Below, piece by piece: positions 36,012 through 49,789 of a stretch of DNA of 64,000 nt. The stretch is taken from positions 66,244 through 130,243 of the forward strand of contig SVAP01000001.1 of NCBI GenBank assembly GCA_015059335.1. The letters are read 5' to 3'. Under the pieces are notes generated by a model. That model was not told the origin of the DNA. It saw only the letters and a program-made list of their open reading frames with translations, and did no database searches. The translations under genes were made by a program, and so were the position numbers. How positions within the stretch are numbered: the first letter of the stretch is position 1; each line of letters starts with the position of its first letter. Origin of the DNA: Bacillota bacterium. GTDB taxonomy: Bacteria > Bacillota_I > Bacilli_A > RF39 > UBA660.

Positions 36012-36284
36012 TTATTTTTTAGTTGATAAAGTTTCAATAAAGTTTATAACCTTGTCTTTATCACTTTGTGATAATAAATAATATTTATCTAATTCATGTG
36101 ATTTACCAACTAAATAATCAATTGAACATCCTAAAACTTCACTTAATCTATATGCAATAGGAAGTGAGGGAATACGAACTTTTTGTTCATATGCCTCAAT
36201 AGATGAGTTACTAACTCCTACAAGATGTTGTAATTTTACTTGTGAATAACCTTTTTTTATTCTTAAAGTTTTAAGATTGGACAT
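36012..36284 (-). CDS. XRE-family repressor divergent from the cargo operon
   Basis: LKTLRIKKGYSQVKLQHLVGVSNSSIEAYEQKVRIPSL HTH_3; the track ORF extends to 36446 but the N-terminal extension looks like translated promoter DNA. Confidence 0.55.
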   Translation of the reverse strand: MSNLKTLRIKKGYSQVKLQHLVGVSNSSIEAYEQKVRIPSLPIAYRLSEVLGCSIDYLVGKSHELDKYYLLSQSDKDKVINFIETLSTKK

Positions 36285-36458
36285 ATCAATTTTTTTCTTT
36301 AATATACTGAATTCTTCCCTATTATTTCTCACTATATACCACCTAATACTATCATAAATTAAAACAAACTTACAAAATCTTACACCAAGTAAGACAAAAG
36401 TAAAAAAATATGATATAATATTTTTGTAAAAAAATTTAATAATCAAAGTGGTGATTAA

Positions 36459-38327
36459 ATGATAGATTATAATGAGTTAAGAAAACGACTTGAATATGAA
36501 AATACTATAAATAATTCGAAATCAGAACTTAAAAAAGTTGAAGATTTAATAATTGAAATTGAAGGTCAATTAAATAATCTTGGAACAAAAGAGAATAGTT
36601 TAGAAATCGTTAAAAAAAACAATACAATAATAAATAAATTGTTTAATAATAAAAAAATTAAGGAACGAATAAAGATTGCCGAAAAAGATGTTGATGAATT
36701 TGTAAAACTACATGGTTCTAAAGAAGAAATCCAAACTAAACTGAATGATTTATATGAAAAAAAAAGATATTATGAAACATTAATAAAATCAATGGATAGT
36801 TCTAAATCTTTTGATAATAATCTTGTCGAAATGAATGAAGATGGAATTTTAGTAATCGATGCCGATAAGCATAATAATGTTGATATATCATATGGTCAGG
36901 AGGGAAAATTAAATAATGATGAATTTATGCTAGTTCACTCTACTGGGCATTTTCCTGATAATCACCAAATTTTATCTGGATATGATGGTAACAAAATTGA
37001 TAAAGAAAATACTTCATCAGAAACAGTAGAATTCGAATATGAAGGAGTAAGGAAAAGTTTTCCTAATTATTCTACAAGAAGAACAACTCACTTTATTTTA
37101 AATTCAGTTGTTCAAGACCATGGATTTGGAAAATTTGGAAGCGAATATATTGTGTTGGAAAATGCAAAAAACCATTCTGGCGAAATAAGAAGAAAAAGTG
37201 CTGGGGACACATGGATTCCACATTCGGTAGAAATATCTGATGCATCTATTCTTATGGTTAGACATGATGTCTATGACAAATTAACTGAAGAACAAAAAAA
37301 CATGTATAAAATAATTATATATAAGGGCGATAAAAAGAGAGCAGTAGAATTACTTTTAAATTCAATGGGATATAGTGCTTTAGAATATAATATAAACGAC
37401 ACTGGACACTCTCTGTCATCCGATATAAAAATAGAAGGAAATTTGAAAGCAAGAAACATTGTTATGAGTTATATAAACAATTATAAAGATTATTCAAAAG
37501 AAGATTTTTCTATTTCATCAGAGATGATGTCTAAAATGTTTGACGTCTGGTTTAAAGGTCATGGCGAAGGTAAAAATTCAAAAATGATATGGCGTGATGA
37601 TGAAAAAGTGAACAATAAAATTATTGAATTGTGTAAAGAAAAAAATATTGATCCCAATTTATTAAATTTTTATATTAAAATGGGTATAACATATGAAAAT
37701 GGAGTTTATAAATCACTACAATATGAGCAAATTTATAATTTATACGAATATTTTGATAATGAAGAAATTAATGTAGATTTTATTAATAATTATATAGAAA
37801 GTCAACATTTGCAAATTATTCAACAAAACATTAATAATAGTTCTATATTAGCAACTAAAACTAATAATGATGTTTCTAATATGAAGTTTGAGGATATAAA
37901 CAAACTAGAAAATTTAGATTACAGTAGGAATTTACAAATTCAATTAAACCAAGTAATTAATAGTATAAATGGTTTATTACATGCTGGTGGTGCAAATGTG
38001 TCTTTTACTGAAAATGGGTTAAAAATAAATTTGACAACTGATTATAATAATTTAACTAATTATGCTAATGAAGAATTTAAATTTTATCCTACAAAAGAAT
38101 GTGTTTCAGGTAATGATAAATGGAAAGAAGTAACTTTTATTATTGATTGTAAAGGATTAACATATCATGAAATTATTGATAAAGTTAAAAACTATGTTCA
38201 CTCAGTTAACAATAGATTATCATCGTCTATTTCAAAGTCAGAACAAATTGAGCAGTTAAAACAGTATAAAGATGAATTAACTAACACCCAAAAGATAAAT
38301 GTTGAAGAAGTTAGAAAGGGATTATAA
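36459..38327 (+). CDS. large unknown protein (622 aa), first gene of cargo island
   Basis: SD aaagtggtga; N-terminal coiled coil; -10 TATAAT at about 36408; no recognised catalytic motif. Confidence 0.55.
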   Translation: MIDYNELRKRLEYENTINNSKSELKKVEDLIIEIEGQLNNLGTKENSLEIVKKNNTIINKLFNNKKIKERIKIAEKDVDEFVKLHGSKEEIQTKLNDLYEKKRYYETLIKSMDSSKSFDNNLVEMNEDGILVIDADKHNNVDISYGQEGKLNNDEFMLVHSTGHFPDNHQILSGYDGNKIDKENTSSETVEFEYEGVRKSFPNYSTRRTTHFILNSVVQDHGFGKFGSEYIVLENAKNHSGEIRRKSAGDTWIPHSVEISDASILMVRHDVYDKLTEEQKNMYKIIIYKGDKKRAVELLLNSMGYSALEYNINDTGHSLSSDIKIEGNLKARNIVMSYINNYKDYSKEDFSISSEMMSKMFDVWFKGHGEGKNSKMIWRDDEKVNNKIIELCKEKNIDPNLLNFYIKMGITYENGVYKSLQYEQIYNLYEYFDNEEINVDFINNYIESQHLQIIQQNINNSSILATKTNNDVSNMKFEDINKLENLDYSRNLQIQLNQVINSINGLLHAGGANVSFTENGLKINLTTDYNNLTNYANEEFKFYPTKECVSGNDKWKEVTFIIDCKGLTYHEIIDKVKNYVHSVNNRLSSSISKSEQIEQLKQYKDELTNTQKINVEEVRKGL

Positions 38328-38342
38328 AAATGGAGGAAAGAT

Positions 38343-38994
38343 TATGAAAAATATAAAAATTAAAAAGTTAGAAAAATATGTGGATGAAGAACATGAGGAA
38401 ATTGTATTTTCAGTGTACAAAAATAAATCAGTGAATTATTATAGTTTTGCCTTTGAGTATGAATTAGAAGAAGGAGAAGGACAATATCCTCTAGAAGATT
38501 TACTAGATAAATTTAGTGTTTCCTGTCATGGAGATTATTATGGACAAGAATTTGAAGAGGATGGTGTAAAAAAAGCTATAGTAGAAGTAATTACATCATC
38601 TGACAGCATTAGAGAATTAATAGATATTTTAAGTTTATCAACGATTATCGATAAACAAGTAAATAATTTTACATTTAAAAATTATGAATATTTAGGTATA
38701 AACTATGGGGATGCAAAGATAATTATTAATGATAAAGAAATTATTGTCCCTATTTATGCAACTAGAAATGTTAGAAATGAAACAGAAACTTTCTGTATGA
38801 AATATCCAGAAGGACAACTTAGCAGTACGTTTAAAAAGGGTTGTGATATATCTGAATATATTAATGGTGATGTAGAATTAGAATATGTAATGTTAGATGA
38901 TTCAAAAGCATTTGTAATATACAAAAAAGATAATCAAGATTATCAATTAGTATATGATATAAAAGGATTTGTTAAAGATGAATTAATTCCGTAA
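38343..38994 (+). CDS. hypothetical acidic protein
   Basis: SD ggaggaaag; internal ATG preferred over overlapping 38299 start. Confidence 0.5.
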
Positions 38995-48435: not shown

Positions 48436-48456
48436 TTGTTTGACGAGGTGTTTCAA

Positions 48457-48681
48457 ATGGAAATGATTAGTCCTGAAATTTTTAAAGAAAATAATACTAA
48501 TAAAACTTATGATGAATTATTAGAAATAAAGGAAAATATTAAAAATAAAATAGAAATACATGAAAAACTATTAAATGATATTTCATCATCTATTTTTTCA
48601 GAAGAAGATTTGAAACTAATGATAGATATGAATAAATCTTATTTAATTGAAATTGATAAATTAATAAACTCACTAAAATAA
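48457..48681 (+). CDS. hypothetical small protein
   Basis: SD gaggtg. Confidence 0.4.
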   Translation: MEMISPEIFKENNTNKTYDELLEIKENIKNKIEIHEKLLNDISSSIFSEEDLKLMIDMNKSYLIEIDKLINSLK

Positions 48682-48721
48682 TCTTAAGAGTTAAAGGTGT
48701 TTTGTTTAGGAGGTAATGACA

Positions 48722-49789
48722 ATGAACATTGAAAATATTGCTATAGTTAGAGCAACAAATATAATACCATTTGATGGTGTAGTAAAACCATTAAGTAATG
48801 AACCATATTTATGTAAAAACATCAGTGGTGAATTTGAAGCAGCAATAAGTAAATGGCTAGATGAATTAAAAATAACTCCAGAACAAGATTATTCAAGAGT
48901 ATTTGAAGACGATTATTATGATAGTTATGTACATAAATGTGGACAAATATTAAAAGAGTACATCCCCTATACATCCGATTATAATTCTACTGTTTTATTT
49001 TCATTAAATGGTATTTGTCCTGACGATAATGAAAATGGTTTTGGTAATAATACTTTTTCTAATAAAAAATGTGCAGTAATTGATTCATTAGTTTATCATG
49101 TTGAACGAGCAGTTTCATTAGTTCCTACAGATACAGCAATTAAAGGTAATGTTGAATTATCTGAAGAAGCAATTATATTAATTGAAGAAGAAACTTTTAA
49201 TAATTTAACAGATGAACAAAAGATTATGTTAGGTAATTTAAAAGTTAAAATTAAACTATTTAGAGGTAGTTTAAAAGATGCAATAAAATCAGAATTAAAA
49301 GAAAGTGGTAAATATATACCAGAAGACTTAGATTTATCAAATAGTTCTGGTGGATTTCAAGAATCAGAAACTAGTGAAATGCAAAAAGAATGTATTAATA
49401 ATATACGCAATACTTTTGGATTATCACATTTAAAATATTATAATTTAATTACATCAAGAGATGGTACTGATATTCCAAAATATGATGAAATAAAAGATGA
49501 ATTTACAAATGCTTATAAAGTAAGAGACTATTATGCAGAACGATTTTTAATGGAATTATTAAATGCAATAAATGCACCTGAAGAAATTAAACAACAATTA
49601 CATAGAAATTTGAATAATAGGATTTACATGGAAAAGATTGTTGAAATGTTAAAAGTTTTCGGTATAGAAAAATATAAAATTTTTGTAGAACAGTATAATA
49701 AAAATTTAGAAATTGAAAGAGAAAATGGCATATTACCTACACCAGAACAGATAGTAAATAATAATATCAATAATAATCTTCATATGTAG
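48722..49789 (+). CDS. hypothetical protein (355 aa)
   Basis: SD aggaggtaatgaca. Confidence 0.5.
   Translation: MNIENIAIVRATNIIPFDGVVKPLSNEPYLCKNISGEFEAAISKWLDELKITPEQDYSRVFEDDYYDSYVHKCGQILKEYIPYTSDYNSTVLFSLNGICPDDNENGFGNNTFSNKKCAVIDSLVYHVERAVSLVPTDTAIKGNVELSEEAIILIEEETFNNLTDEQKIMLGNLKVKIKLFRGSLKDAIKSELKESGKYIPEDLDLSNSSGGFQESETSEMQKECINNIRNTFGLSHLKYYNLITSRDGTDIPKYDEIKDEFTNAYKVRDYYAERFLMELLNAINAPEEIKQQLHRNLNNRIYMEKIVEMLKVFGIEKYKIFVEQYNKNLEIERENGILPTPEQIVNNNINNNLHM

What the first reader, a model, noticed from the sequence alone, without database searches (positions are those of the whole stretch)
36012..49789. Repressor-gated 13.3-kb unidirectional cargo island of 20 mostly unknown genes: candidate anti-defence or counter-toxin system
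An XRE repressor faces a + strand island of 20 genes running from 36459 to 49789. It is arranged in three promoter/terminator-delimited units (36459-41380, 41668-45737, 45856-49789), and a membrane protein, an HTH regulator, an ArpU-like regulator and an orphan DNA methyltransferase follow before the T4SS genes. Most proteins have no recognisable family. The recognisable ones are all reversal enzymes: a SpoT-type small alarmone hydrolase, an ADP-ribosylglycohydrolase, a JAB-like protein and a SIMPL protein. This composition matches leading-region anti-defence islands of conjugative elements and phage counter-defence loci. It could equally be an orphan-immunity array. The 622-aa first gene and the acidic 140-240-aa proteins are the novel components.
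Basis: inference. Interest (0 to 1): 0.75.

Follow-up and report, generated by a model that had tools for sequence, protein, structure and literature searches.

The report
Variable cargo island beside conjugation genes
This 13-kb block is a strain-variable cargo region next to the conjugation genes of an uncultured gut bacterium, not part of the neighbouring prophage; it carries enzymes that add or remove ADP-ribose, alarmone and ubiquitin-like marks, which suggests but does not prove a role in genetic conflict.

Summary
The island is real, but it has 17 co-oriented ORFs (36459-49789), not 20. An XRE gene (36012-32, minus strand) faces it, and promoter and terminator features support the three units.

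- **Location:** a split SleB-like gene places the prophage's right end at about 34.3 kb, so the island is outside the prophage. It lies between a second regulatory switch and a Gram-positive T4SS with a MobL relaxase.
- **Transfer order:** by analogy with pLS20, the island is ORFs 21-37 and 15.6-29 kb from the inferred oriT. It is not the first DNA transferred.
- **Variability:** one strain variant swaps the cargo from gene 3 onward.
- **Wider distribution:** several genes also occur singly in chromosomes, or in a small mobilizable element, of related bacteria.
- **Known families:** no known defence, anti-defence or immunity family matches.

Best reading: a mosaic accessory arm of a conjugative element, plausibly counter-defence. 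The function is untested.

The parts
34303..34500 (-). Context: 5' fragment (66 aa) of a SleB/CwlJ-like cell-wall hydrolase gene. It marks the right junction (attR) of the 37.6-kb prophage.
   Evidence: It ends ...YQNPGGFT*. The 3' fragment, which begins YNPGGFSG..., lies next to the serine integrase about 3.3 kb left of the window. The rejoined 142 aa align to SleB 4f55 across the junction.
35162..35235 (+). tRNA-Trp (CCA), followed by a terminator hairpin at 35246-35279. Two tRNA-like 5' fragments lie upstream at 34603-34678 and 34839-34880.
35711..35935 (+). 74-aa HTH_19/HTH_3 regulator, convergent with the XRE gene
36012..36332 (-). XRE/HTH_3 regulator (106 aa as called in public assemblies), divergent from gene 1. 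Repressor function is inferred.
36333..36458 (.). 126-bp divergent control region with a promoter-like site at 36391-36419 (AAGACA-17-TATAAT with TG)
36459..38327 (+). g01, 622 aa: N-terminal coiled-coil-like region, ART-like domain (aa 147-304, motifs VHST, YSTRRTTHFILN, GDT), unknown C-terminal half
   Evidence: hhalign to the g17 family gives prob 97.8%, E 1e-12. BLASTP gives 25% identity. No Pfam, PHROG, NCBIfam, PADLOC or PDB sequence match. The only distant homologue is a stand-alone chromosomal gene.
38344..38994 (+). g02, 216 aa, pI 4.5, no family. Retained in the variant island.
39010..39432 (+). g03, 140 aa, no family. It contains the recombination breakpoint (about 39300) with the variant island, which carries a 62%-identical allele.
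39448..39987 (+). g04, 179 aa, no family
40062..40628 (+). g05, 188 aa, basic (pI 8.9), no family. Homologues at 41-72% identity lie in chromosomal loci of four related MAGs.
40664..41380 (+). g06, 238 aa, DUF6882
   Evidence: E 8e-20
41465..41488 (+). Intrinsic-terminator-like hairpin ending unit 1. A promoter-like site follows at 41564-41591.
   Evidence: dG -13.2 kcal/mol
41668..42213 (+). g07, 181 aa: small alarmone hydrolase (SpoT-type HD domain only). Motifs H31, H55-D56, E59-D60 and ADKLHN are present.
   Evidence: Pfam HD_4 and NCBIfam spoT_relA. Best PDB matches are Lmo0812 (4yf1) and 7qoe; the (p)ppApp hydrolase 7smg also matches.
42276..43355 (+). g08, 359 aa: DraG/Tri1/ARH-type ADP-ribosylglycohydrolase. 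Motifs GDALGYPVEF, SDDT and GGDSDST are present.
   Evidence: Pfam E 2e-63. NCBIfam Tri1 and DraG matches are below their cutoffs. PDB matches include Lmo0067, MJ1187, Tri1 (6dre) and DraG.
43360..44568 (+). g09, 402 aa, no family. Its C-terminal 224 aa are 50% identical to the protein that precedes the JAB gene in a widespread Mob_Pre mobilizable element.
   Evidence: No relative in GTDB representative genomes.
44599..45042 (+). g10, 147 aa, weak DUF7738 match below its cutoff. Its stop overlaps the g11 start (ATGA).
45039..45737 (+). g11, 232 aa: JAB/MPN+ (JAMM) metalloprotease-like protein. E76, H136-S-H138 and S149-x-x-D152 are invariant or nearly so.
45736..45830 (+). AT-rich hairpin plus U8 (45736-45785), then a promoter-like site at 45803-45830, separating units 2 and 3
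45857..46258 (+). g12, 133 aa, no family
46294..47232 (+). g13, 312 aa, three hydrophobic C-terminal segments (membrane protein), no family
   Evidence: Sequence
47264..47761 (+). g14, 165 aa, no family
47767..48435 (+). g15, 222 aa, SIMPL/DUF541 domain, no N-terminal signal sequence visible
   Evidence: E 1.5e-20
48457..48681 (+). g16, 74-81 aa, acidic, no family
48716..49789 (+). g17, 357 aa: ART-like N-terminal domain (R12-A-T, Y89-N-S-T, T-D139-T) plus a helical C-terminal domain. It belongs to an unannotated family of about 350-aa proteins.
49807..50322 (+). YgjV-family membrane protein, 18 bp after g17, probably the last gene of unit 3
   Evidence: E 5e-29; long hairpins follow at 50758-50800 and 51177-51214
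50446..50697 (+). HTH_26 regulator
51245..51700 (+). ArpU/sigma-70-region-4-like regulator (weak, below cutoff). A diverged version also precedes the T4SS genes in variant L009.
51777..52592 (+). Orphan N6/N4 DNA methyltransferase. It is apparently absent from variant L009, whose 1.08-kb left flank matches nothing in this gene.
54011..64000 (+). Gram-positive T4SS module: S26 signal peptidase, Flg_new protein, TED/SpaA adhesin, sortase, TrbL_4/VirB6-like, PrgI-like, and VirB4-like running off the window. An M23 peptidase, a NikA-like protein and a MobL relaxase follow at about 64.5-67.7 kb in window coordinates, outside the window.

Best explanation
The block is the accessory (cargo) arm of a conjugative element integrated in the chromosome of an uncultured, small-genome gut or rumen Bacilli. 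It lies just right of an unrelated 37.6-kb prophage.

**Shown**
- Seventeen co-oriented genes sit between a regulatory pair (an HTH gene and a divergent XRE gene) and a Gram-positive T4SS with a MobL relaxase.
- The block is divided into three promoter/terminator-delimited units.
- It differs between strains from gene 3 onward.
- Its genes have separate histories. Some also occur singly in chromosomes of related bacteria, and one pair occurs in a small mobilizable element.
- The identifiable proteins all belong to families that act on reversible, nucleotide-derived or ubiquitin-like modifications: two diverged members of an undescribed ADP-ribosyltransferase-like family (g01, g17), a DraG/Tri1-type ADP-ribosylhydrolase (g08), a SpoT-type small alarmone hydrolase (g07) and a JAMM isopeptidase-like protein (g11).

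**Inferred**
- The XRE protein keeps at least unit 1 silent until the element is induced or enters a cell that lacks the repressor.
- The eraser enzymes then act like orphan type-IV antitoxins. They would remove ADP-ribose, pyrophosphate/alarmone or ubiquitin-like marks laid down by host toxin-antitoxin, abortive-infection or interbacterial toxins.
- The ART-like proteins would modify host targets.
- The island enters a recipient early but not first. By analogy with pLS20, DNA upstream of oriT leads, and the island follows about 20 T4SS and regulatory ORFs.
For: **Location**
- The prophage end is fixed by a split SleB-like gene.
- T4SS genes lie inside the window, and NikA-like and MobL genes lie just beyond it.
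- A second cI/cro-like switch sits at 35.7-36.3 kb, distinct from the prophage's own switch.

**Mosaic and variable content**
- Variant L003 is 99.5% identical up to 39300 and unrelated afterwards; it carries DUF1963 and other genes.
- g09 has no relative in 185,579 GTDB species representatives.
- The g09 C-terminal part and g11 occur as a pair in a Mob_Pre/serine-recombinase mobilizable element found in 91 collection blocks.
- Homologues of g01, g05, g11 and g17 occur singly at other chromosomal loci.

**Enzymes**
- ARH with intact motifs.
- SAH with intact motifs.
- JAMM motif and fold, closest to BubCD, Cap3 and BilC.
- ART-like fold for g17, and homology of g01 to it.

**Units**. **Acidic bias**.

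**Precedent**
- Phages carry orphan ADP-ribosylglycohydrolase antitoxin-like enzymes against DarTG1 (PMC11825919).
- Viral ARTs and ADPr-removing domains are widespread conflict tools (PMC9503650).
- Small alarmone hydrolases neutralise toxSAS toxins (PMC7229694).

Against: - No island protein matches a known anti-defence, anti-restriction, SSB, PsiB or Acr family in Pfam, PHROGs or NCBIfam. No dedicated anti-defence library was available.
- g07, g08, g17, g01 and g05 have ordinary chromosomal relatives, so they could serve housekeeping or stress functions.
- In the two contexts sampled, g17 homologues stand alone with no conserved partner. That fits a toxin or effector role poorly.
- The g11 and g17 families are absent from IMG/VR, and g11 is absent from INPHARED and PLSDB.
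- The element's integrase, coupling protein and right end were not found in the DNA I could reach, so 'ICE' is inferred from the T4SS and relaxase alone.
- oriT was not identified by sequence.
- The terminators inside and after the island mean that XRE control of units 2 and 3 is unproven.
Confidence: 0.5

Rival explanations
1. It is a grab-bag of host-derived accessory genes with no common function. The genes were captured piecemeal from related chromosomes and serve NAD/nucleotide metabolism, stress or envelope roles that benefit the host or are neutral.
For: - g01, g05, g11 and g17 homologues occur singly next to housekeeping genes in related MAGs.
- The closest solved relatives of g07 and g08 are ordinary Listeria chromosomal proteins, Lmo0812 and Lmo0067.
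- SIMPL's nearest named family is an oxidative-stress protein.
- A YgjV transporter-like gene closes unit 3.
- There are no defence or anti-defence matches.
Against: - Writer and eraser enzymes for three different modification chemistries are concentrated in 13 kb.
- The island sits behind a repressor in a conjugative element.
- The g09C-g11 pair is re-used in a minimal mobilizable element that carries almost no other cargo.
- The proteins are biased toward acidity.
Confidence: 0.25
2. It is an orphan immunity or antitoxin array, similar to acquired interbacterial defence. The island would protect the carrier cell against secreted ADP-ribosylating, (p)ppApp-synthesising and other toxins from neighbours, rather than helping the element invade.
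For: - g08's best NCBIfam match is Tri1, an ARH that acts as immunity to the Tre1 toxin. The match is far below the family cutoff.
- Small alarmone hydrolases degrade (p)ppApp (PDB 7smg match).
- The island has many small acidic proteins and strain-variable content.
Against: - None of the Pfam immunity-protein families matches.
- No toxin fragments, LXG/WXG/Rhs genes or associated recombinase lie within the island.
- A published analysis of the variant's DUF1963/TYPP domain proposes a protein-interaction or chaperone-like role, not immunity (PMC4275035).
- The two ART-like proteins are writers, not immunity proteins.
Confidence: 0.15
3. It is a leading-region anti-defence island in the strict sense: the first DNA to enter the recipient, transcribed from single-stranded DNA.
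For: - All genes are oriented so that the inferred T-strand is their template (PMC5313138, PMC11541004).
- An orphan methyltransferase lies between the island and the T4SS genes.
- Part of the island falls within about 30 ORFs of the inferred oriT.
Against: - About 20 T4SS and regulatory ORFs and 15.6 kb separate the inferred oriT from g17, and g01 is ORF 37 at 29 kb.
- No known anti-defence family is present.
- No Rfam match and no unusual single-strand fold in the internal gap (z = -1.6).
- The orientation is uninformative because the whole window is co-oriented.
- oriT is not mapped.
Confidence: 0.07
4. It is a prophage moron or counter-defence region belonging to the P22-like prophage on its left.
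For: - The island follows the lysis cassette on the same strand.
- The same phage-island adjacency occurs in every long contig found.
Against: - The prophage is bounded by the two halves of a SleB-like host gene; the right half is at 34303-34500, 2 kb before the island.
- The prophage has its own integrase, cI and cro at its left end.
- The island gene families tested (g01, g11, g17) are absent from IMG/VR.
Confidence: 0.03

Closest known systems
Accessory/cargo regions of Firmicutes conjugative elements with pLS20-type architecture (XRE-family repressor divergent from a long co-oriented operon; MobL relaxase with upstream oriT)
   Same: - A divergent XRE-type gene at the head of a long one-strand gene array.
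- Gram-positive T4SS genes.
- A NikA-like RHH auxiliary gene followed by a MobL-family relaxase (PMC5313138).
   Different: - This element is chromosomal rather than a Bacillus plasmid.
- Internal terminators and extra regulators (HTH_26, ArpU-like) separate the cargo from the T4SS genes.
- No coupling protein or integrase has been seen.
- The cargo proteins are unrelated to described pLS20 genes as far as I tested.
Leading-region anti-defence islands of plasmids (Samuel et al. 2024, PMC11541004)
   Same: - One-direction gene array on the inferred T-strand template.
- An orphan methyltransferase nearby.
- Many unknown small acidic proteins.
- Location on the non-relaxase side of the inferred oriT.
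   Different: - The island is not adjacent to oriT (ORFs 21-37).
- No ArdA, KlcA, Acr, PsiB or SSB families.
- No ssDNA-promoter signature found.
Orphan antitoxin-like eraser enzymes used as counter-defence (phage AdfN NADAR against DarTG1, PMC11825919; small alarmone hydrolase antitoxins of toxSAS, PMC7229694)
   Same: Stand-alone hydrolases of ADP-ribose and alarmone/pyrophosphate marks, carried by a mobile element without a cognate toxin beside them.
   Different: - The ADP-ribose eraser here has the DraG/ARH fold, not NADAR or macro.
- None of the activities or targets has been tested.
- The carrier is a conjugative element, not a lytic phage.
Bacterial JAB/JAMM peptidases of ubiquitin-like defence systems (Cap3 of type II CBASS, BilC, BubCD)
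   Different: - No E1, E2, Ubl or CD-NTase gene is nearby.
- g11 carries about 50 extra N-terminal helical residues.
- It travels alone or with the g09 C-terminal domain protein.
ADP-ribosyltransferase superfamily (DarT, CopC/OspC, Tpt1/KptA, cholera/pertussis-type toxins)
   Same: - The g17 model's only structural neighbours are ART-fold proteins.
- It has an R/H-x-T motif on strand 1 and a Y-x-S-T motif on strand 2.
   Different: - No sequence-level match to any ART family.
- The acidic catalytic residue is not assigned.
- The two other sampled family members are stand-alone chromosomal genes with no immunity or antitoxin partner.

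Membership tests
Leading-region anti-defence island (PMC11541004) | Lies within roughly the first 30 ORFs from oriT, on the side opposite the relaxase | tested here: inconclusive
   oriT is inferred only, in the 306-bp gap upstream of the NikA-like gene at about 65.4-65.7 kb. 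The island would then be ORFs 21-37, 15.6-29 kb away.
Leading-region anti-defence island (PMC11541004) | Contains known anti-defence genes (anti-restriction, Acr, SOS inhibitors, SSB) | tested here: not met
   None found in Pfam, PHROGs or NCBIfam for the ORFs searched. PHROGs covered g01-g10 only. The only methyltransferase lies outside the island. No dedicated anti-defence HMM set was available.
Leading-region anti-defence island (PMC11541004) | Genes oriented for transcription from the T-strand, with ssDNA promoters | tested here: inconclusive
   The orientation fits by analogy with pLS20 (PMC5313138), but the whole window is co-oriented. No Rfam match. The internal gap folds no better than shuffles (z = -1.6).
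Prophage cargo (moron) region | Lies between the prophage attachment junctions | tested here: not met
   The split SleB-like gene puts attR at about 34.3 kb. The island starts at 36459.
Integrative conjugative element accessory region | Contiguous with T4SS and relaxase genes of the same element | tested here: met
   VirB4-, VirB6- and PrgI-like genes, sortase and adhesin, M23 peptidase, NikA-like and MobL genes lie 4-18 kb to the right on the same strand. A diverged ArpU-like gene precedes the T4SS genes in variant L009.
Integrative conjugative element accessory region | Element ends (att sites), integrase and coupling protein identified | not testable with these tools
   I could read DNA only up to about 70.8 kb in window coordinates. 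No repeat of the tRNA-Trp 3' end, no integrase and no VirD4-like gene were found there.
Integrative conjugative element accessory region | Content varies between otherwise identical elements | tested here: met
   L003 is 99.5% identical up to 39300, then carries unrelated genes. Only one variant was found.
Known anti-phage defence systems (PADLOC) | Match to a model of a known or candidate defence protein | tested here: not met
   No match for any of g01-g17.
Polymorphic-toxin orphan immunity array / acquired interbacterial defence | Known immunity-protein families, toxin remnants or an associated recombinase | tested here: not met
   No Pfam Imm, SUKH or similar family, and no toxin domains.
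ADP-ribosylglycohydrolase (PF03747), g08 | Full-length domain match and metal-site motifs | tested here: met
   E 2e-63 over 286 of 287 profile positions. SDDT and GGDSDST align with solved homologues. The assignment of these motifs as the metal site rests on my own knowledge of the family.
Small alarmone hydrolase (RSH hydrolase-only), g07 | HD_4 domain with HD...ED and ADxLHN motifs and no synthetase domain | tested here: met
   The protein is 181 aa, so it is a single domain.
JAB/MPN+ (JAMM) metalloprotease, g11 | MPN fold plus the E...H-S/T-H...S-x-x-D motif | tested here: met
ADP-ribosyltransferase superfamily, g01 and g17 | ART fold | tested here: met
ADP-ribosyltransferase superfamily, g01 and g17 | Catalytic H-Y-E or R-S-E triad and NAD+ binding | tested here: inconclusive
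   R12/H160 and the S-T motif are conserved. The acidic third residue is not assigned, and no structural alignment was available.
ART-ARH toxin/antitoxin or effector/immunity pair (DraT-DraG, Tre1-Tri1) | Adjacent, co-inherited writer and eraser genes | tested here: not met
   g08 is about 4 kb from g01 and 5 kb from g17, in a different unit. The two g17 homologues examined elsewhere have no ARH neighbour.

The most novel reading that the evidence does not exclude
The island could be a dedicated 'modification-reversal' counter-defence hub carried by a conjugative element. Three orphan eraser enzymes (a DraG-type ADP-ribosylhydrolase, a small alarmone hydrolase and a JAMM isopeptidase with its g09-type partner) would disarm ADP-ribosylating, pyrophosphorylating/alarmone and ubiquitin-like-conjugating immune systems of recipient cells. 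Two members of a previously undescribed ADP-ribosyltransferase-like family would modify host targets, all under one XRE switch.
Probability: 0.2. Interest if true: 0.8.

Novelty: new member of a known kind. Interest (0 to 1): 0.45.

Why it matters
Mobile elements of uncultured, small-genome gut Bacilli are almost unstudied.

If the island is counter-defence cargo, it would extend the 'orphan antitoxin-like eraser' idea from lytic phages to Gram-positive conjugative elements. It would also extend it to three chemistries at once.

It offers concrete, testable candidates:
- a stand-alone JAMM peptidase that also rides a very widespread mobilizable element;
- a family of about 300 clusters with an ADP-ribosyltransferase-like fold and no annotation.

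Even on the ordinary reading, the work corrects the map of this locus. The prophage, a short stretch with no assigned element that holds the split host gene and tRNA-Trp, and the conjugative element are now delimited from one another.

Tried and rejected
**Searches that found nothing**
- Near-identity DNA searches of the island and the phage region against INPHARED phages and PLSDB plasmids.
- PADLOC on all island proteins.
- PDB sequence searches for g01, g09, g11 and g17, and a g11 family profile.
- g01, the g11 family and the g17 family in IMG/VR.
- g11 by tblastn in plasmids and phages.
- Pfam scan of 66 diverse g17-family members, looking for a link to a named ART family.
- A profile HMM of the g17 family did not reach g01 with hmmsearch. 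The homology needed BLASTP and hhalign.

**Boundaries I could not extend**
- Completing the variant island by a metagenome scan found nothing.
- Extending the element to the right by a second scan returned only unrelated loci that share an HTH gene.
- An empty integration site in related MAGs could not be found. Synteny stops at the amidase gene, there is no tRNA there, and the neighbouring UDG gene is unrelated.
- No repeat of the tRNA-Trp 3' end was found as a possible element end.

**Readings rejected**
- DUF1963 as an immunity marker. The one published analysis proposes a protein-interaction or chaperone-like role.
- g01-g02 or g16-g17 as toxin-immunity pairs. The homologues of g01 and g17 examined elsewhere stand alone.
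- A single phage-plasmid hybrid. The split host gene and the two separate regulatory switches separate the prophage from the conjugation region.

Full report
**1. Observation**

The window is 23-33% G+C throughout. From 36459 to 49789 there is an unbroken series of + strand ORFs. My ORF list and the independent gene calls on public ENA and JGI contigs that are 100% identical (L001, L002) agree on 17 genes, g01 to g17.

An HTH_3/XRE gene lies on the minus strand. As called in those assemblies it is 106 aa at 36012-36332. This leaves a 126-bp divergent control region with a promoter-like site at 36391-36419.

- A hairpin plus T-run lies at 41465-41488 (dG -13.2), followed by a promoter-like site at 41564-41591.
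- An AT-rich 12-bp hairpin plus U8 lies at 45736-45785 (dG -7.4). The scanner missed it for lack of G-C pairs. A promoter-like site follows at 45803-45830.

Promoter-like sites are barely above chance in this AT-rich DNA (190 found against 168 expected). They count only because of where they lie.

A YgjV-family membrane gene follows g17 after 18 bp. Long hairpins, an HTH_26 gene, a weak ArpU/sigma-like gene and an orphan N6/N4 methyltransferase come next.

**2. What surrounds the island**

*Prophage on the left.* The left 32 kb of the window is a temperate phage. It has an HTH_36 initiator, a DnaB helicase, a P22-like portal, a capsid protein, a 2121-aa polyvalent protein, tail-collar and collagen-like fibres and an M15 endolysin. 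Just left of the window lie its large serine integrase, a PemK-like gene, and cI and cro. Beyond those are the chromosomal genes dinB, yitT and an amidase. The same dinB-yitT-amidase order is seen in related MAGs labelled 'Bacilli bacterium' from animal and human guts. One relative has a closed 1.31-Mb chromosome.

*Prophage right end.* Next to the integrase is the 3' fragment of a SleB/CwlJ-type hydrolase gene, beginning YNPGGFSG.... The 5' fragment of the same gene is at window 34303-34500 (minus strand) and ends ...YQNPGGFT*. The rejoined 142-aa protein aligns with the SleB catalytic domain (4f55) across the junction. The prophage is therefore about 37.6 kb long and ends at about 34.3 kb. 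The island lies outside it.

*Between the prophage and the island.* This stretch holds a tRNA-Trp gene with its terminator, two tRNA-like 5' fragments, a 78-aa ORF and a second HTH/XRE pair.

*Conjugation module on the right.* Right of the island lie an S26 signal peptidase, a Flg_new protein, a thioester/SpaA adhesin, a sortase, TrbL_4 (VirB6-like), PrgI-like and VirB4-like genes. Beyond the window are an M23 peptidase, a NikA-like protein and a MobL-family relaxase, at about 65.9-67.7 kb in window coordinates. No coupling protein, integrase or right end was found in the DNA I could reach.

*Variants of the right side.* One contig lacks any match to the methyltransferase in its short left flank but keeps a diverged ArpU-like gene in front of the T4SS genes. 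Two others carry PemK, DUF6870 and two serine recombinases after 56268.

**3. The proteins**

*Gene 7.* g07 is a single-domain SpoT-type hydrolase (HD_4, spoT_relA). It has the His, HD...ED and ADKLHN motifs. Its best solved relatives are Lmo0812, the small alarmone hydrolases 7qoe and 7qoc, and more distantly a (p)ppApp hydrolase.

*Gene 8.* g08 is a full-length ADP-ribosylglycohydrolase (E 2e-63) with the SDDT and GGDSDST motifs. It is related to Lmo0067, MJ1187, Tri1 and DraG.

*Gene 11.* g11 has no Pfam or PDB sequence match. Even so, 38 homologues conserve E76, H136-S-H138 and S149-x-x-D152. A confident model (pLDDT 88) matches JAMM enzymes:

*Genes 6, 10 and 15.* g15 has a SIMPL domain and g06 a DUF6882 domain. 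g10 has a weak DUF7738 match below its cutoff. No enzymatic activity is known for any of these.

*Genes 1 and 17 (new result).* g01 (aa 147-304) and g17 (aa 3-198) are homologous. BLASTP gives 25% identity, and hhalign gives probability 97.8%, E 1e-12.

Three conserved motifs fit an ART core:
- R12-A-T in g17, against H160-S-T in g01;
- Y-N-S-T-x-x-F-x-L-N in g17, against Y-S-T-R-R-T-T-H-F-I-L-N in g01;
- an invariant Asp in T-D-T (g17) or G-D-T (g01).

The consensus across 66 diverse family members is LVRxTD...YRSTxHFxxNG...EDTxFKG. The third catalytic residue is not assigned. An exhaustive search found only 297 representative clusters, and none of 66 diverse members has a Pfam match. This is an unannotated family whose predicted fold is ART-like. 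That is a fold-level inference, not a demonstrated activity.

*The rest.* Ten proteins (g02-g05, g09, g10, g12-g14, g16) remain without any assignment. Fifteen of the 17 island proteins are acidic. No island protein matches PADLOC.

**4. Distribution and variability**

The island occurs identically, or nearly so, in about 20 metagenome contigs. It also occurs in an NCBI MAG ('Firmicutes bacterium', proteins MBE6152713.1 to MBE6152723.1, all but the ARH annotated as hypothetical).

One contig is 99.5% identical up to 39300, inside g03. After that point it carries unrelated genes: a 62%-identical g03 allele, a DUF1963 protein, and 334-aa and 691-aa unknowns.

g09 has no relative in 185,579 species-representative genomes. 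The block is therefore not conserved chromosomal DNA.

Individual genes do travel separately:
- The only distant homologue of g01 is a lone gene near ftsZ and murC.
- The two g17 homologues examined are lone chromosomal genes.
- g05 homologues lie in chromosomal loci of four relatives.
- An 88%-identical g11 is a lone chromosomal gene.
- An 83%-identical g11 sits directly after a protein 50% identical to the C-terminal part of g09, in a small element made of a Mob_Pre relaxase, an XRE gene, an HTH_36 gene and a serine recombinase. That element is found in 91 blocks of the collection.

g01, the g11 family and the g17 family are absent from IMG/VR. g11 is also absent from INPHARED and PLSDB.

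**5. Position relative to transfer**

In pLS20, the founding member of the MobL family, oriT lies upstream of the auxiliary genes and the relaxase. [quoted passage not shown] DNA upstream of oriT therefore enters the recipient first.

By analogy, oriT here would lie in the 306-bp gap before the NikA-like gene, at about 65.4-65.7 kb. Transfer would run leftward through about 20 T4SS and regulatory ORFs before reaching g17 (ORF 21, 15.6 kb) and finally g01 (ORF 37, 29 kb).

The island is on the early-entering side and its genes have the inferred T-strand as template. It is not the first DNA in, and 36459 would be its last part to enter. oriT itself is unverified. I found only short imperfect inverted repeats in that gap.

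The features that define leading-region anti-defence islands are known anti-defence families, closeness to oriT and ssDNA promoters (PMC11541004). They are not met or are inconclusive here.

**6. Interpretation**

*Shown.* This is a strain-variable, mosaic cargo block inside or against a conjugative module. It sits behind an XRE-type gene and outside the prophage. Its identifiable proteins are writers and erasers of ADP-ribose, alarmone/pyrophosphate and ubiquitin-like marks.

*Inferred.* It functions in genetic conflict, most likely as counter-defence or toxin-reversal cargo expressed when the repressor is absent or inactivated. Precedents exist:
- orphan ADP-ribosylglycohydrolase antitoxin-like enzymes in phages (PMC11825919);
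- small alarmone hydrolases as antitoxins (PMC7229694);
- widespread viral ARTs and ADPr-removing domains (PMC9503650);
- JAMM peptidases that reverse Ubl conjugation in CBASS, Bil and Bub systems, based on the names of the structural neighbours and my own knowledge.

*Against.* Many of the genes have ordinary chromosomal relatives, and no known anti-defence family matches. A grab-bag of captured host genes therefore remains a serious rival (0.25). An orphan immunity array is possible but lacks any immunity-family or toxin-remnant signature (0.15). Strict leading-region status (0.07) and prophage cargo (0.03) are poorly supported or contradicted.

**7. Novelty**

A cargo island in a conjugative element is a known kind of thing. 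What is new here:
- the particular combination of enzymes;
- the unannotated ART-like family that brackets the island;
- the mobile JAMM gene with its g09-type partner;
- the host lineage.

I rate it a new member of a known kind, with moderate interest (0.45).

Noticed in passing
window 1-34303, plus about 3.3 kb left of the window (L015 5247-6898): A 37.6-kb temperate P22-like phage is integrated by a large serine recombinase into a SleB/CwlJ-type cell-wall hydrolase gene. Both junctions carry an NPGGF-coding stretch. The two gene halves rejoin into a protein that aligns to SleB across the junction.
   Followed up: yes
window 18653-25018: A 2121-aa phage protein has LPD23 and SprT-like domains, so it looks like a 'polyvalent' protein. 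It sits where a podovirus would encode ejected internal proteins, and may be a virion-delivered counter-defence protein.
   Followed up: no
window 34603-34678, 34839-34880 and 35162-35235: One intact tRNA-Trp(CCA) is preceded by two degenerate copies of its 5' half, including the anticodon arm. The usual integration scar is a duplicated 3' end, so the origin of these copies is unexplained.
   Followed up: partly
window 32585-33409; L015 7336-7962; L018 16482-16817: Three different PemK/MazF-like toxin genes lie at mobile-element edges: a 246-274-aa fusion at the prophage right end, one next to the phage integrase, and one in the insertion seen in other contigs. No antitoxin was identified.
   Followed up: no
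window 56268 (L018 and L020 from 16462): In two other contigs the sequence diverges right after the Flg_new gene into PemK, DUF6870 and two large serine recombinases instead of the adhesin, sortase and TrbL genes. This is probably another element inserted into the T4SS cluster.
   Followed up: partly
window 53948 and leftward (L009 1-1078): A variant has no match to 51777-53661 (the methyltransferase, the 79- and 90-aa ORFs and the first half of the 206-aa gene) in its 1.08-kb left flank. It keeps a diverged ArpU-like gene and a 72%-identical remnant of the 206-aa gene's 3' part directly before the T4SS genes. This ties that regulator to the conjugation module.
   Followed up: partly
L112-L115 (for example L112 7600-15762): A compact mobilizable element (Mob_Pre relaxase, a g09C-like 347-aa protein, a g11-like JAB protein, an XRE gene, an HTH_36 gene and a serine recombinase) is very widespread in gut metagenomes, occurring in 91 collection blocks. 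In one contig it sits beside nSTAND3 and SLFN/AlbA_2 genes.
   Followed up: partly
window 50698-51244: The spacer between the HTH_26 and ArpU-like genes holds two long near-perfect hairpins (19- and 16-bp stems). It folds far better than shuffled sequence as single-stranded DNA (z = -4.95). These could be strong bidirectional terminators or a structured ssDNA element.
   Followed up: partly
window 56333-59405: An 820-aa thioester-domain/SpaA-repeat adhesin with its own sortase and an S26 signal peptidase is embedded in the T4SS cluster. This suggests a covalently attaching mating adhesin.
   Followed up: no
window 3143-3781: A short (212-aa) tyrosine recombinase gene lies in the phage early region, in addition to the serine integrase at the phage end.
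   Followed up: no
window 49807-50322; L107 6780-7313: A YgjV-family membrane gene follows g17 directly. In one unrelated MAG another YgjV gene lies about 3 kb from the g17 homologue. This may be a weak functional link or a coincidence.
   Followed up: no
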